From IMG/VR virus record IMGVR_UViG_2695420650_000004: a stretch of DNA of 4,951 nt; one strand, written 5' to 3'. Positions within the stretch are counted from its first letter, which is position 1. Every line of letters begins with the position of its first letter. This stretch comes from a virus (Duplodnaviria > Heunggongvirae > Uroviricota > Caudoviricetes). Shown here one piece after another: positions 2,380 to 4,951 of the stretch. The position numbers were made by a program, and so were the translations under genes. A model generated the notes under the pieces. It was not told where the DNA came from, did no database searches, and saw only the letters and a list, made by a program, of their open reading frames with translations.

Positions 2380-2430
2380 CGGAGGGATTTCTGCACCCTC
2401 AAATCATCAGGAGACCACCCGAAAGGGCGG
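2380..2430 (+). repeat. Copy 1 of a 51-bp direct repeat forming two hairpins (second stem carries one mismatch)
   Basis: CGGAGGGATTTCTGCACCCTCAAATCATCAGGAGACCACCCGAAAGGGCGG. Hairpin 1 is GAGGG/CCCTC with a 9-nt loop; hairpin 2 is CCACCC-GAAA-GGGCGG with an A/C mismatch. It matches 2536-2586 at 50 of 51 positions. Confidence 0.85.
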
Positions 2431-2513
2431 GGAGCAGTCACACATCTGTTTCCGATAGCCCCGTTCTAATGCTACACTCTTTGATATTTTTATGACCCCA
2501 ATAAACATATTTA

Positions 2514-2535
2514 NNNNNNNNNNNNNNNNNNNNNN
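2514..2535. other. Assembly gap or masked bases (22 N)
   Basis: A run of 22 N characters read directly; it abuts the 5' edge of repeat copy 2. Confidence 1.
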
Positions 2536-2586
2536 CGGAGGGATTTCTGCACCCTCAAATCATCAGGAGACCGCCCGAAAGGGCGG
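2536..2586 (+). repeat. Copy 2 of the 51-bp direct repeat; hairpin 2 is perfect with a GNRA (GAAA) tetraloop
   Basis: CGGAGGGATTTCTGCACCCTCAAATCATCAGGAGACCGCCCGAAAGGGCGG. Stem 2 is A-CCGCCC-GAAA-GGGCGG-T (7 bp). The repeat ends 6 nt before ATG 2593. The upstream extent is hidden by the N run. Confidence 0.85.
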
Positions 2587-2812: not shown

Positions 2813-3178
2813 ATGGCACTGACGAAAAAACAACGTGCAGAACTGCGCATGAAGTTCGGTGGTCGCTGCGCTTATTGCGGCTGCGAACTTGGCGAAAAGT
2901 GGCATGCAGACCATGTAAAACCGGTCATTCGTTTTGATGGAAATATGCTTCACCAGGAACGTGACGATATATCCAACATGGTACCAGCATGCCACCCATG
3001 CAATCTGCACAAGCATTGCAGTAGCCTGGAAGATTATCGACGAATTATCAGTGATGGTCGTCGTGAATTCCTTGCGTCCGGGAAAGGCAAAGCGCTGGTT
3101 CGTATGGGATTGGTTGAAATGAAATCTGACCCGGTTGTGTTCTGGTTTGAAAAATATCAAGAAGGGGCTACGGCATGA
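2813..3178 (+). CDS. HNH endonuclease (small, about 121 aa)
   Basis: Zinc-knuckle and catalytic motifs: CAYCGC ... HADH ... N ... CHPCNLHK. Ribosome-binding site AAGGA at 2800-2804 sits 8 nt before ATG 2813. The longer ORF from 2723 lacks a ribosome-binding site and adds a non-domain N-terminus. Confidence 0.85.
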   Translation: MALTKKQRAELRMKFGGRCAYCGCELGEKWHADHVKPVIRFDGNMLHQERDDISNMVPACHPCNLHKHCSSLEDYRRIISDGRREFLASGKGKALVRMGLVEMKSDPVVFWFEKYQEGATA

Positions 3179-3840
3179 CCACTATTACCAAAGAGCGACT
3201 GCAATGGCTGGCTAACATTTCTGGCCGCGATGATATTGACGATATAGACGGCGGTGAAATTCGTGAACTGGCGCTTATCGCTCTGGCATCACTGGAAGCA
3301 GAGCCTGTAGCGGAATGCATTGTTGAAGATGGGGGCATGTGTATTGACGGGTTCGGTGAGTATGTGGGTCACTCGCTGCCTGATGGAATGCATGAGCTTT
3401 ATGCTGCCCCGCGAATGCGACAACCTGATGGATGGAAAGCCGTAGCTGTAGCGTGGAAGGTGACGTTTACTCAAGTTGACCAGGAATCTAATACGTTCAC
3501 TGCTATATATTTTGACAAAGCGGAAGTTGAGTGTTGGGTACGACTGCATAAAGCATGTGATTTTCGGGCAGATATAACACCGCTTTACGCAGCGCCGGCA
3601 GTGCCGGTTGCAGTAAACGACGACATGGCTTACGCATTCCATCACGCACTGTCAGATTCATCGCTTGGCTCTGATGAAATCGAAGAAATTAAAACCGGTT
3701 TGCGTGCTGCCTTTGCCAACGTCACTATCCAACCAGAGCCGATAGTGCCGGATGAAATCGGGCCAAACGATAGTAATACGTTTGATTATGTTGATGGCTG
3801 GAACGCCTGCCGCGCTGCCATGCTTAAGGGAGATAAATAA
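3175..3840 (+). CDS. Hypothetical prophage protein (221 aa, acidic) with an internal repeated LYAAP motif
   Basis: ATG 3175 overlaps the HNH stop (ATGA), with GAAGGGG at 3161-3167. The LYAAP motif occurs twice (HELYAAPRMRQPDGW and ITPLYAAPAVPVAV). Function is not recognised. Confidence 0.8.
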   Translation: MTTITKERLQWLANISGRDDIDDIDGGEIRELALIALASLEAEPVAECIVEDGGMCIDGFGEYVGHSLPDGMHELYAAPRMRQPDGWKAVAVAWKVTFTQVDQESNTFTAIYFDKAEVECWVRLHKACDFRADITPLYAAPAVPVAVNDDMAYAFHHALSDSSLGSDEIEEIKTGLRAAFANVTIQPEPIVPDEIGPNDSNTFDYVDGWNACRAAMLKGDK

Positions 3841-4205
3841 TGATTAATCGAACCAAACTGGAGCACATTCTCGAATATGCCAGGCAGCAGAAATGTATTG
3901 GGCAACTTTGTAAAATTCCACCAGGAGATATGGTTGAAATCGTGGAAATGGCCATGCGTAAGGCTGGCAACTCTCCGGTAGCTCCGGCTGGCTGGATAAG
4001 CTGTAGTGATGCAGTTCCTGCTGAATATTGCGATGTGATTCTTCTCGATGATCTCGGGAATGTATTCCCCGGTTCCTGGGATAAGGTTTTTTGCCCCACT
4101 CGTGGCGGGAATAAGATGGCTTTTGTGGACAAAGACGGCGTTGAAGTAGAGAGCTCAACTCACTGGATGCCGCTACCGGAACCACCGCAGGAGGTGAATC
4201 AATGA
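3840..4205 (+). CDS. DUF551-like phage protein
   Basis: Start overlaps the upstream stop (TAATG), with ribosome-binding site AAGGGA at 3826-3831. The C-terminus THWMPLPEPP is the hallmark I associate with the DUF551 family common in lambdoid nin regions. Confidence 0.8.
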   Translation: MINRTKLEHILEYARQQKCIGQLCKIPPGDMVEIVEMAMRKAGNSPVAPAGWISCSDAVPAEYCDVILLDDLGNVFPGSWDKVFCPTRGGNKMAFVDKDGVEVESSTHWMPLPEPPQEVNQ

Positions 4206-4285
4206 CCTGGCCTGAGGCATTCACCACGGTAGGAATTGCGATGGCGGTGGCGCTGGTGGTGTATTCGATTTGCCGTTGGGGTTAA
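4202..4285 (+). CDS. Small hydrophobic peptide (27 aa, MTWPEAFTTVGIAMAVALVVYSICRWG), putative single-pass membrane peptide
   Basis: Not in the ORF track because it is too short. A consensus ribosome-binding site AGGAGG at 4189-4194 sits 7 nt before ATG 4202, which overlaps the DUF551 stop (ATGA). It is followed 10 nt later by a strong intrinsic terminator. Confidence 0.5.
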   Translation: MTWPEAFTTVGIAMAVALVVYSICRWG

Positions 4286-4294
4286 CAAACAAAA

Positions 4295-4321
4295 ACCCCG
4301 GATTGATGGTCCGGGGTTTTT
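4295..4321 (+). terminator. Rho-independent terminator closing the HNH/DUF551 operon
   Basis: An 8-bp GC-rich stem ACCCCGGA/TCCGGGGT (4295-4302 and 4310-4317) with a 7-nt loop, followed by TTTT at 4318-4321. An A-run upstream means it could work in both directions. Confidence 0.8.
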
Positions 4322-4455
4322 GAAGGAAACAAAACAGAAACAGCAATTGCCGTTACCTGTTGTTACCATGGCAAGTAAACGTATCTCAGGCGAGCGCATT
4401 GCGCCGTTCTGACGCAGATAAACTAGCCTGGATAGATGGTGCTGGCAATAAAAAA

Positions 4456-4491
4456 TAGCGTTTTCTTATCGGTGTCGGTAAGATTGCTGCG
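4456..4491 (+). promoter_or_regulatory. Putative weak promoter of the hok/mok mRNA
   Basis: -10-like TAAGAT at 4479-4484 with a poor -35. The predicted start near 4491 would give a 5' end GGGUGCUUGAGG, resembling the plasmid R1 hok mRNA 5' end (GGCGCUUGAGG) as I recall it. Confidence 0.4.
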
Positions 4492-4540
4492 GGTGCTTGA
4501 GGCTGTCTGCCTCGGGTATGTCACTGTAAGGCAGACAGAG

Positions 4541-4611
4541 AAAAGCCCCAGTTAACATTACGCGTCCTGCAAGACGCTTAACATTAATCTGAGGCCCAAT
4601 CTATGTCTCAC
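4541..4611 (-). ncRNA. sok: Sok-like antisense RNA (type I antitoxin), predicted
   Basis: A minus-strand promoter is readable as -35 TTGCCT (complement of 4641-4646), a 17-bp spacer, and -10 TAACCT (complement of 4618-4623), which parallels my recollection of the R1 sok promoter. The transcript would be antisense to the mok ribosome-binding site and start codon. A predicted terminator is a 7-bp stem (complement of 4589-4595 paired with 4545-4551, one G-U pair) followed by UUUU. Confidence 0.5.
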
Positions 4612-4815
4612 AAATGTAGGTTAGCCTCTTACGTGCCGAAAGGCAAGGAGAAGCAGGCTATGAAGCAGCAAAAGGCGATGTTAATCGCCCTGATCGTCAT
4701 CTGTTTAACCGTCATTGTGACGGCACTGGTAACGAGGAAAGACCTCTGCGAGGTACGAATCCGAATCGGCCAGACGGAGGTCGCTGTTTTCGTAGACTAC
4801 GAATCTAGAGAGTAA
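4603..4815 (+). CDS. mok: Mok-like reading frame (in-frame N-terminal extension of hok that couples hok translation)
   Basis: ATG 4603 with GAGG at 4591-4594. The 70-aa ORF MSHKCRLASYVPKGKEKQA-MKQQ... has the same architecture as chromosomal MokC/HokC as I recall it. Confidence 0.6.
   Translation: MSHKCRLASYVPKGKEKQAMKQQKAMLIALIVICLTVIVTALVTRKDLCEVRIRIGQTEVAVFVDYESRE
4660..4815 (+). CDS. hok: Hok/Gef family type I toxin (51 aa)
   Basis: MKQQKAMLIALIVICLTVIVTALVTRKDLCEVRIRIGQTEVAVFVDYESRE is near-identical in pattern to HokD/RelF and HokC/Gef. Ribosome-binding site AAGGAG at 4645-4650 precedes ATG 4660. Confidence 0.85.
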   Translation: MKQQKAMLIALIVICLTVIVTALVTRKDLCEVRIRIGQTEVAVFVDYESRE

Positions 4816-4876
4816 GAGTGACCAGGCGGGAGAGTAATCTCCCGCCACCTTTGATGTGTCAGGCATCCTCAACGCA

Positions 4877-4914
4877 CCCGCACTTAACCCGTTTCGGCGG
4901 TTTTTTTGGTAATG
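4877..4914 (+). terminator. Probable 3' end and terminator of the hok mRNA (weak hairpin plus U7)
   Basis: CCGC...GCGG and CCG-TTT-CGG pairings followed by TTTTTTT at 4901-4907. It lies just downstream of the 3' fold-back element GCACCCGC at 4874-4881. Confidence 0.45.
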
Positions 4915-4951
4915 ACTCCAACTTATTGATAGTGTTTTATGTTCAGATAAT

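What the first reader, a model, noticed from the sequence alone, without database searches (positions are those of the whole stretch)
4456..4914. Complete hok/mok/sok-type type I toxin-antitoxin locus with conserved RNA elements, carried on the prophage
The Hok-family toxin ORF is clear. The flanking RNA signals match the family architecture: a 5' hairpin GAGGC-TGTCT-GCCTC at 4499-4513; an alternative long-range pairing of 4503-4512 with 4529-4538; a 5' segment GCGGGTGC (4489-4496) exactly complementary to a 3' segment GCACCCGC (4874-4881), consistent with fold-back inhibition; a 9-bp stem-loop with a GUAA loop just after the hok stop (4825-4846); and a minus-strand promoter placed to make an antisense RNA over the mok start. 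Mok is an in-frame extension, as in chromosomal mokC/hokC. This is a known system type, notable here as a likely prophage stabilisation or abortive-infection module beside the accessory operon.
Basis: partly seen in the sequence, partly recalled or inferred. Interest (0 to 1): 0.5.

Follow-up and report, generated by a model that had tools for sequence, protein, structure and literature searches.

The report
Ordinary prophage hok/mok/sok toxin-antitoxin locus
This is a standard, apparently intact hok/mok/sok "RNA-controlled killer peptide" cassette of the hokD/hokW type in a lambdoid prophage (probably Shigella sonnei), already present and annotated in public databases, so it is real but ordinary.

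Summary

- **Toxin and leader:** the 51-aa ORF (4660-4815) is a Hok/Gef toxin (Pfam, 77 bits). The leader (4491-4665) scores 118 bits on Rfam RF01794 (threshold 59).
- **RNA switch:** across 91 non-redundant hok loci the 5'/3' (tac/fbi) pairing, the 5' metastable hairpin, the long tac stem and the post-stop hairpin are 92-99% paired. All four show compensatory changes. MFE folds of full-length, 3'-truncated and nascent RNA reproduce the published hok switch.
- **Antisense gene:** it maps to 4611->4541 on the minus strand. Its promoter (-35 TTGCCT, 17 nt, -10 TAACCT) is identical to that of sokW of phage 933W/Sp5, which has been tested experimentally.

Corrections and additions:
- The first two "tac" bases (4489-4490) probably lie upstream of +1.
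- The Rfam "sok" model is oriented as the hok leader, not as Sok.
- The locus ends at 4907. Bases 4908-4951 are an IS1 end abutting a weakened terminator.
- Tyr47 sits in an invariant TadA-type CUACGAA loop.

The exact Hok and Mok proteins occur on about 1000 public contigs each. Biological role is not settled by sequence. Already known; low interest.

The parts
4479..4484 (+). Putative hok promoter -10 (TAAGAT). No convincing -35. +1 is inferred at G4491.
   Evidence: In the 91-locus alignment this column holds TAGAAT, TAAGAT, TATAAT or TATGAT, six bases before the conserved GG(G/C)... start. The generic scan finds no promoter. Inferred only.
4491..4907 (+). Full-length hok mRNA (about 417 nt).
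   Evidence: The Rfam RF01794 match starts at 4491. Homology to phage and prophage loci runs from 4483 to 4907. MFE z = -6.4.
4491..4502 (+). tac (translational activator element): the 5' segment with three mutually exclusive partners.
   Evidence: It pairs with fbi in the full-length MFE, with ucb in the truncated MFE, and in a local hairpin in the nascent RNA. Covariation.
4493..4519 (+). 5' metastable hairpin; the core is 4499-4503/4509-4513.
   Evidence: Exact in the window. It is the MFE of the first 38 nt. 99% paired in 91 loci, with 4 of 5 pairs showing double changes.
4503..4538 (+). Long tac-stem pairing, 4503-4512 with 4529-4538.
   Evidence: Exact complement. Part of the Rfam consensus structure. 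95.5% paired; pair 4505-4536 is AT 46, TA 18, GC 15.
4543..4549 (+). ucb (anti-SD of mok), AAGCCCC.
   Evidence: It pairs with the mok SD at 4591-4595 in the full-length MFE and with tac in the truncated MFE. 97% paired but invariant, so there is no covariation.
4541..4611 (-). Sok-type antisense RNA gene (about 71 nt): a 14-nt single-stranded 5' tail, a long hairpin and a U tail.
   Evidence: Maps onto the annotated sokW of 933W and sokC of K-12. Fold of -29.2 kcal/mol, z = -5.3. 64 of 71 bases identical to sokW.
4618..4646 (-). Sok promoter: -35 TTGCCT (4646-4641), 17-nt spacer, -10 TAACCT (4623-4618), +1 at G4611.
   Evidence: Identical to the 933W sokW promoter, whose mutation releases HokW toxicity (PMC8621323). 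Conserved across the family. Not found by the generic scan.
4591..4594 (+). mok Shine-Dalgarno sequence, GAGG.
   Evidence: Lies 8 nt before ATG 4603. Conserved as GAGG in all aligned loci. Sequestered by ucb in the full-length fold.
4603..4815 (+). mok ORF (70 aa), an in-frame N-terminal extension of hok.
   Evidence: Same arrangement as mokC/hokC of K-12 and mokW/hokW. The exact protein is on about 1000 public contigs.
4605..4610 (+). dcb-like segment that pairs with the mok SD region after 3' truncation.
   Evidence: In the truncated MFE, 4590-4595 pairs with 4605-4610. This matches the published 'mok SD/dcb stem' (PMC9841398). Prediction only.
4660..4815 (+). hok toxin ORF (51 aa), with SD AAGGAG at 4645-4650.
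   Evidence: Pfam PF01848, 77.3 bits, E = 6.7e-22. 48 of 51 residues identical to HokW and 46 of 51 to K-12 HokD.
4793..4807 (+). TadA-type A-to-I editing hairpin: stem 4793-4796/4804-4807, loop CUACGAA 4797-4803. A4799 is the middle base of the Tyr47 codon TAC (edited product would read Cys).
   Evidence: TACGAA is essentially invariant (4802 is A in 89 of 91) and codon 47 is TAC in all 91 loci. Stem pairs covary: 4793-4807 is CG 38, TA 29, TG 24; 4794-4806 is AT 46, GC 33. Editing at this position is reported for hokC, hokD and hokE (PMC12214031).
4825..4846 (+). Post-stop 9-bp hairpin with a GUAA (GNRA) loop; probable 3' protective hairpin of the truncated mRNA.
   Evidence: Exact in the window. 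97% paired, with 7 of 9 pairs showing double changes. The role of the last stem-loop of truncated hok mRNA is described in PMC9841398.
4867..4881 (+). fbi (fold-back inhibition element), with C4873 bulged.
   Evidence: Pairs with 4491-4502 in the MFE. The core pairs at 4491-4496 are paired in nearly all sequences; pair 4494-4876 is TA 65 against CG 22.
4889..4907 (+). Weak intrinsic terminator: 4-bp stem, UUCG loop, seven T.
   Evidence: -3.8 kcal/mol here against -11.4 for the common relative sequence CCCGCTTCGGCGGG. Not detected by the terminator scan.

Best explanation
Window 4479-4907 is a hok/mok/sok type I toxin-antitoxin cassette of the hokD/hokW subgroup. It sits in the early (nin-like) region of a lambdoid prophage.

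Proposed mechanism (inferred from sequence, folding and homology; nothing was measured here):
1. A weak promoter makes a stable mRNA of about 417 nt starting near G4491.
2. While the RNA is being made, its 5' end is held in a local metastable hairpin.
3. In the finished RNA the 5' end (tac, 4491-4502) pairs with the 3' end (fbi, 4867-4879). The ucb box (4545-4549) then covers the mok ribosome-binding site (4591-4595). The RNA is neither translated nor bound by Sok.
4. Slow 3' trimming back to the post-stop hairpin (4825-4846) removes fbi. tac then switches to ucb, and the mok SD and start codon are exposed.
5. A short-lived antisense RNA of about 71 nt is made from a strong minus-strand promoter (+1 at G4611). 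It pairs over the mok start, and the duplex is destroyed by RNase III.
6. If Sok supply stops, Mok/Hok is translated and the 51-aa Hok peptide collapses the inner membrane.
7. TadA editing of Tyr47 to Cys is a likely extra layer of control.

Most likely biological role, by analogy with hokW-sokW: helping lysis and phage release on induction, and possibly prophage retention. This is not settled by sequence.
For: - Toxin: Pfam HOK_GEF, 77 bits. 48 of 51 residues identical to HokW, which has been shown experimentally to be toxic and to be neutralised by sokW (PMC8621323).
- Leader: Rfam RF01794, 118 bits against a gathering score of 59, full length.
- Structures: exact complementarities and MFE z = -6.4.
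- Conservation: 91-locus alignment with compensatory changes in tac/fbi, the metastable hairpin, the tac stem and the post-stop hairpin. Slid-partner controls give 24-66% paired, against 92-99% observed.
- Switch: predicted refolding between full-length, truncated and nascent RNAs matches the published model (PMC9841398).
- Sok: homology to annotated sokW and sokC, promoter identical to sokW, fold z = -5.3.
- Context: DnaC-like ATPase, DUF977, DUF4014, HNH and DUF551 upstream. In a 99.4% identical relative, DUF1367, an antiterminator-like gene, holin and lysozyme lie downstream.
- Editing motif; PMC12214031.
Against: - No expression data. Neither promoter passes a generic sigma-70 scan, and the hok promoter has no recognisable -35.
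- The terminator hairpin is weak in this lineage and an IS1 abuts it, so the real 3' end is uncertain.
- The tac/ucb pairs are invariant, so they are conserved but not supported by covariation.
- Hok carries Ile36 where close relatives have Thr; the effect is unknown.
- Chromosomal hok loci tested earlier did not mediate post-segregational killing (as summarised in bioRxiv 10.1101/2025.08.07.668861).
Confidence: 0.88

Rival explanations
1. The cassette is a structurally intact but physiologically inert or decaying copy, like most K-12 chromosomal hok loci. It would be transcribed poorly or end aberrantly because of the weak promoter, the weak terminator and the flanking IS1, in an IS-ridden Shigella-type genome.
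For: - IS1 lies directly after the T-run.
- The terminator is -3.8 kcal/mol against -11.4 in relatives.
- No promoter is detected by the scan.
- Sister copies are hit by ISSfl7 in the mok start region (L023, L027) and adjoin IS600 at the post-stop hairpin (L007).
- The literature states that K-12 hokA, hokC and hokE are inactivated by IS elements and hokD by rearrangement (PMC12214031).
Against: - No element inside 4491-4907 is disrupted.
- The ORFs are intact, and the exact proteins are on about 1000 contigs each.
- The Sok promoter is identical to a functional one.
- Only 3 substitutions separate 4400-4907 from the IS-free relative.
- 42 of 45 diverse Hok peptides tested were toxic (bioRxiv 10.1101/2025.08.07.668861).
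Confidence: 0.2
2. The cassette is active, but its role is prophage retention (post-segregational killing after excision or loss) or abortive infection against other phages, rather than help with lysis.
For: Plasmid hok/sok mediates post-segregational killing, and hok genes are enriched four-fold in prophages (bioRxiv 10.1101/2025.08.07.668861).
Against: The only experiment on a close prophage relative found faster lysis and about two-fold more phage released, with no phenotype in uninduced lysogens (PMC8621323). The same preprint found hok is not enriched near defence systems. Nothing in the sequence discriminates between these roles.
Confidence: 0.3

Closest known systems
hokW/mokW/sokW of Stx2 phage 933W / Sakai prophage Sp5
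   Same: 92.7% DNA identity over window 4483-4889. Hok is 48/51 identical, with an in-frame 70-aa Mok. The Sok promoter is identical and Sok is 71 nt, 64/71 identical. Both sit in lambdoid prophages.
   Different: The Sok 5' tail and mok N-terminus differ (GUGAGACAUAGAUU here, GUUCAGCAUGGAUU in sokW), which suggests a distinct antisense specificity. Homology to 933W ends just after fbi, so the 3' end differs. Genome position differs: the nin-like region here, the right end of 933W there.
hokD (relF) of the E. coli K-12 Qin prophage
   Same: Hok is 46/51 identical. The slot is the same: early region, upstream of rem, the DUF1367-type gene and Q. RefSeq names many 92-96% DNA relatives hokD.
   Different: K-12 hokD sits directly behind relBE, and no mok or sok is annotated there. 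The window has the full leader, mok, sok and fbi.
hokC (gef)/mokC/sokC of E. coli K-12
   Same: In-frame mok. sokC is annotated antisense across the mok start. RF01794 scores 118 bits on the hok strand. An IS element lies close downstream (IS186 about 20 bp after hokC).
   Different: Hok is 39/51 identical. The hokC-type leader lacks the extra 18-nt hairpin insert in the Sok stem that the window subgroup carries. The IS here is IS1.
hok/mok/sok of plasmid R1 (parB)
   Same: Same set of RNA elements: tac, fbi, ucb, dcb, metastable hairpin, post-stop hairpin and antisense over the mok start (PMC9841398).
   Different: Hok is only 43% identical. In R1-type loci mok is out of frame: 58 nt from the mok ATG to the hok ATG, against 57 nt here. 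R1 is plasmid-borne with a proven post-segregational killing role.

Membership tests
hok/sok (Hok/Gef) type I toxin-antitoxin family | Small membrane toxin with the Hok/Gef domain | tested here: met
   PF01848, 77.3 bits against a cut-off of 22, over the full 42-position profile. NCBIfam Hok subfamily at 51.7 bits, below its strict cut-off of 73.
hok/sok (Hok/Gef) type I toxin-antitoxin family | Conserved structured hok mRNA leader | tested here: met
   Rfam RF01794, 118.1 bits against a gathering score of 59, model positions 1-157, on the plus strand at 4491-4665. Known loci hit in the same orientation.
hok/sok (Hok/Gef) type I toxin-antitoxin family | Overlapping mok reading frame with its own SD upstream of hok | tested here: met
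   ATG at 4603 with GAGG at 4591-4594. The ORF runs to the hok stop, in frame.
hok/sok (Hok/Gef) type I toxin-antitoxin family | Long-range 5'-3' tac/fbi pairing supported by covariation | tested here: met
   12 to 14 bp in the window. 92% and 85% paired in 91 loci; pair 4494-4876 is TA 65 against CG 22; slid controls 27-61%.
hok/sok (Hok/Gef) type I toxin-antitoxin family | Alternative tac/ucb pairing and ucb/mok-SD pairing (the switch) | tested here: inconclusive
   Both are predicted by MFE in the expected RNA forms and are 97% paired, but the columns are invariant, so there is no covariation.
hok/sok (Hok/Gef) type I toxin-antitoxin family | 5' metastable hairpin in the nascent transcript | tested here: met
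   It is the MFE of the first 38 nt. 99% paired, with 4 of 5 pairs showing double changes.
hok/sok (Hok/Gef) type I toxin-antitoxin family | Cis-encoded antisense Sok gene over the mok start, with promoter and terminator | tested here: met
   Met at sequence level only. The promoter is identical to functional sokW, +1 is G4611, and a hairpin plus U tail follows. Generic scans do not detect it.
hok/sok (Hok/Gef) type I toxin-antitoxin family | Sok RNA is expressed and unstable; hok mRNA is stable and 3'-processed | not testable with these tools
   Needs Northern blot, RNA-seq or RACE.
hok/sok (Hok/Gef) type I toxin-antitoxin family | Hok expression kills or arrests cells, and Sok rescues them | not testable with these tools
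   Shown for HokW, which is 94% identical (PMC8621323). Not shown for this allele (Ile36).
TadA A-to-I mRNA editing substrates (hok family) | UACG inside a tRNA-Arg-like 7-nt loop closed by a stem, at a Tyr codon | tested here: met
   Loop CUACGAA at 4797-4803 and stem 4793-4796/4804-4807. UACG is invariant in 91 loci and the stem covaries. Editing itself is not testable here.

The most novel reading that the evidence does not exclude
IS1 sits directly after a weakened terminator. This may change the hok mRNA 3' end, for example by read-through into IS1, and so alter the timing of fbi removal in this copy. More broadly, three different IS types (IS1, ISSfl7, IS600) sit in or beside near-identical hok cassettes, and IS186 lies next to K-12 hokC. 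Together these could mean that hok loci are preferred or selected IS targets, offering a route to taming resident toxins in Shigella-type genomes.
Probability: 0.12. Interest if true: 0.3.

Novelty: already known. Interest (0 to 1): 0.1.

Why it matters
It matters little for discovery. The system type, this subgroup and even these exact proteins are already in public databases, and a 93%-identical locus has been characterised experimentally.

Practical value:
1. RefSeq relatives annotate only the Hok CDS. mok, Sok, the RNA switch elements and the editing hairpin can be transferred from this analysis.
2. Rfam RF01794 ("sok") matches the hok-mRNA strand. Pipelines that label its hits as the antitoxin will place Sok on the wrong strand and make it about twice too long.
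3. The locus is a clean natural example of an intact hokD-type cassette, which K-12 lacks.

Tried and rejected
- **Generic scans:** the sigma-70 scan found no promoter in 4200-4951. The terminator scan reported only an upstream hairpin and a chance site inside hok. The Sok and hok signals had to be placed by homology instead.
- **Whole-segment RNA duplex search** between 5' and 3' regions was too noisy to use; shuffled controls were often as stable. It was replaced by column-wise pair counts on a MAFFT alignment.
- **More distant Hok proteins:** fetching beyond the 120 listed failed. Diversity was obtained from a species-level genome scan instead.
- **Ile36 and toxicity:** I looked in the R1 mutational-scan paper for the equivalent position (R1 D37) and found no mention.
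- **U-turn motif:** I looked by eye, not formally, for a YUNR motif in the predicted Sok-target loop (4596-4604) and saw none. No conclusion is drawn.
- **Other Rfam matches:** weak sub-threshold hits at 4284-4445 on the minus strand (STnc30, PsrR1, His leader and others, 24-28 bits against thresholds of 42-120) are driven by one terminator-like hairpin. They were rejected as family matches.

Full report
**Observation.**
- The hairpin GAGGC-TGTCT-GCCTC is at 4499-4513.
- 4503-4512 is the exact reverse complement of 4529-4538.
- GCGGGTGC (4489-4496) is the exact reverse complement of 4874-4881.
- The 9-bp hairpin with a GUAA loop is at 4825-4846.
- The hok ORF is 4660-4815 (51 aa), and an in-frame ATG at 4603 gives a 70-aa Mok.

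The 8-mer occurs only at those two sites in the window, against 0.16 expected by chance. The 5'/3' complementarity continues past a single bulged C4873 to 14 bp in all. The 419-nt RNA folds with z = -6.4, and none of 100 shuffles is as stable. Its MFE closes the 5' end onto the 3' end.

**Identity.**
- The ORF matches Pfam HOK_GEF at 77 bits.
- The leader 4491-4665 matches Rfam RF01794 over the whole model, at 118 bits against a gathering score of 59.
- The DNA from 4400 to 4907 is 99.4% identical to E. coli chromosomes where the CDS is annotated "Hok/Gef family protein". It is 92-96% identical to loci annotated hokD.
- It is 92.7% identical to the hokW/mokW/sokW locus of phage 933W over 4483-4889.
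- One IMG/VR contig (L006) is 100% identical over window 3160-4951, IS1 end included.
- The exact 51-aa and 70-aa proteins are each on about 1000 public contigs. They are named Hok/Gef family protein, mostly from Shigella sonnei.

**Context.**
- Upstream genes are a DnaC/IstB-like ATPase, DUF977, DUF4014, an HNH endonuclease and DUF551.
- In the 99.4% relative the cassette is followed by DUF1367, DUF1364, a DUF1133 gene, tRNAs, holin, lysozyme and a lysis protein, and preceded by YdaT and YdaU.
- The cassette therefore sits in the nin-like region of a lambdoid prophage. K-12 Qin hokD and the hok of phage Rac occupy the same slot.

**RNA architecture tested on relatives.**
I collected 80 viral loci, 79 loci from one genome per species (Escherichia, Kluyvera, Photorhabdus, Pantoea, Mixta, Sodalis, Erwinia and R1-type plasmid copies) and several annotated loci. 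These were reduced to 91 non-redundant hok transcription units and aligned.

| Helix | Paired | Pairs with double change | Slid-partner controls |
|---|---|---|---|
| tac/fbi, 4489-4496 / 4874-4881 | 92% | 2 of 8 | 27-57% |
| tac/fbi, 4497-4502 / 4867-4872 | 85% | 4 of 6 | 34-61% |
| 5' metastable hairpin | 99% | 4 of 5 | 24-56% |
| 4503-4512 / 4529-4538 | 95.5% | 5 of 10 | 38-55% |
| Post-stop hairpin | 97% | 7 of 9 | 55-66% |
| tac/ucb | 97% | 0 of 7 (invariant) | 24-73% |

- In tac/fbi, the six core pairs at 4491-4496 are paired in nearly all sequences. Pair 4494-4876 switches between T-A (65 sequences) and C-G (22).
- Pair 4505-4536 in the long stem is AT 46, TA 18, GC 15.
- The pairs at 4489-4881 and 4490-4880 are much less conserved. 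This fits a transcription start at G4491, the position given by the Rfam model start and by the spacing from the -10 box (TAAGAT, 4479-4484), as in R1-type loci.

**Predicted switch.**
- Full-length RNA (4491-4907): tac (4491-4502) pairs with fbi (4867-4879), and ucb (4545-4549) pairs with the mok SD (4591-4595).
- After removal of the 3' end (4491-4852 or 4491-4860): tac pairs with ucb (4543-4549), and the SD region pairs with 4605-4610.
- First 38 nt: tac is held in the local hairpin 4493-4519.

This is the published hok model of a tac/fbi closed form, a tac/ucb plus SD/dcb open form, and a metastable nascent structure (PMC9841398). That paper also shows that the last stem-loop of the truncated mRNA protects it from 3' exonucleases. 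The hairpin at 4825-4846 fits that role.

**Antisense gene.**
- The sokW annotation of 933W maps to window 4541-4611 on the minus strand. The 5' end of K-12 sokC maps to the same position, 8 nt inside mok.
- On the minus strand, -35 TTGCCT (4646-4641), a 17-nt spacer and -10 TAACCT (4623-4618) put +1 at G4611.
- This promoter is base-for-base identical to the sokW promoter and is conserved through the family.
- The generic scan misses it because the -10 matches only 3 of 6 consensus positions.
- The 71-nt RNA folds into a 14-nt single-stranded 5' tail, a long hairpin and a U tail (-29.2 kcal/mol, z = -5.3).
- For hokW-sokW, published experiments show HokW toxicity, rescue by sokW from its own promoter, loss of rescue when that promoter is mutated, and partial dependence on RNase III and Hfq (PMC8621323).
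- The window's Sok 5' tail differs from sokW in 7 of 71 positions, concentrated in the tail. This suggests a separate antisense specificity.

RF01794, although named "sok", matches the hok-mRNA strand. In K-12 it hits the hokC strand while sokC is annotated opposite, and the same holds for 933W. The hit validates the leader, not an antisense transcript.

1. *IS1.* The cassette ends at 4907, and 4908-4951 is an IS1 end. In L005 a complete 768-bp IS1 sits at the same site. The sequence beyond it resumes about 140 bp further downstream than in the IS-free relative.
2. *Terminator.* This lineage has CCCGTTTCGGCGGT where the common relative sequence is CCCGCTTCGGCGGG, giving -3.8 against -11.4 kcal/mol.
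3. *Editing hairpin.* Tyr47 (TAC, 4798-4800) lies in the loop CUACGAA (4797-4803), closed by 4793-4796/4804-4807. UACG is invariant (TACGAA nearly so: A4802 in 89 of 91), codon 47 is TAC in all 91 loci, and the stem covaries. This is the TadA substrate motif. Editing at this position, which creates a Cys, is reported for hokC, hokD and hokE (PMC12214031). Cys30 is encoded directly in the DNA here.

**Function.** The mechanism above is inferred from sequence, folding and homology. None of it was measured for this locus. For the biological role, the only direct data on a close prophage relative show that Sok disappears on induction, Hok appears about 1 h before endolysin, lysis is advanced by about 40 min, and phage yield is about two-fold higher (PMC8621323). 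Post-segregational stabilisation and abortive infection remain possible. A recent survey finds hok enriched four-fold in prophages but not near defence systems (bioRxiv 10.1101/2025.08.07.668861). An inert copy cannot be excluded (weak promoter and terminator, flanking IS1), but nothing inside the transcription unit is broken.

**Verdict.** It is an already known system in an already sequenced and annotated form. Interest is low.

Noticed in passing
window 4908-4951: This is the end of an IS1 element, inserted directly after the hok terminator T-run (7 T here, 8 T in the IS-free relative L001). The window and the 100% identical contig L006 both stop inside it. In L005 the full 768-bp IS1 is present, and the flank beyond it resumes about 140 bp further downstream than in L001, which suggests an adjacent deletion.
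   Followed up: yes
window 2380-2586: A run of 22 N (2514-2535) and 83 unaligned bases are flanked by a 51-bp direct repeat that matches at 50 of 51 positions (2380-2430 and 2536-2586). This could be a scaffold gap or masking artefact, or a small module inserted at a repeated boundary sequence. The relative L001 has one copy of the repeat.
   Followed up: partly
window 4290-4322 (wider region 4284-4445, minus strand): A strong 13-bp GC-rich hairpin with T-runs on both sides looks like a bidirectional terminator between the DUF551 gene and hok. Several sub-threshold Rfam sRNA and leader hits on the minus strand (24-28 bits) all rest on it. The roughly 285 bp between DUF551 and the hok promoter is unannotated in relatives.
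   Followed up: partly
L023/L027 (equivalent to window ~4596-4610); L007 (equivalent to window 4830/4831): Sister copies of this cassette are interrupted by other IS elements. An IS5-family ISSfl7 (931 bp) sits in the mok start / Sok 5' region. IS600 sequence adjoins a break inside the post-stop hairpin, but one N lies at that junction, so it may be a scaffold join. K-12 hokC also has IS186 about 20 bp downstream.
   Followed up: partly
window 4491-4665; L085 502-654; L003 1509-1683: Rfam RF01794, named 'sok antitoxin', is oriented as the hok mRNA leader (157 positions ending at the hok AUG). The annotated sokC and sokW lie on the opposite strand and are only 59-71 nt long. Automatic annotation from this model would put the antitoxin on the wrong strand.
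   Followed up: yes
L043 (column of window 4603-4605): One 96% identical relative has ACG in place of the mok ATG start codon, while the rest of the cassette is intact.
   Followed up: no
L091, L107, L109, L156-L158: Near-identical E. coli-type or R1-type hok loci appear on contigs (275 bp to 23 kb) of assemblies labelled Veillonella parvula MAG, Acinetobacter idrijaensis, Xanthomonas pisi, Ferruginibacter MAG, Streptomyces morookaense and Oscillibacter. These are most likely contamination or mis-binned enterobacterial or plasmid DNA.
   Followed up: no
window 4551-4590: The hokD/hokW subgroup carries an extra 18-nt hairpin insert (ACGCGTCCTGCAAGACGC) inside the Sok stem / hok target region. 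It is absent from hokC-type and plasmid-type leaders. Some Kluyvera and related loci keep it with compensatory changes.
   Followed up: no
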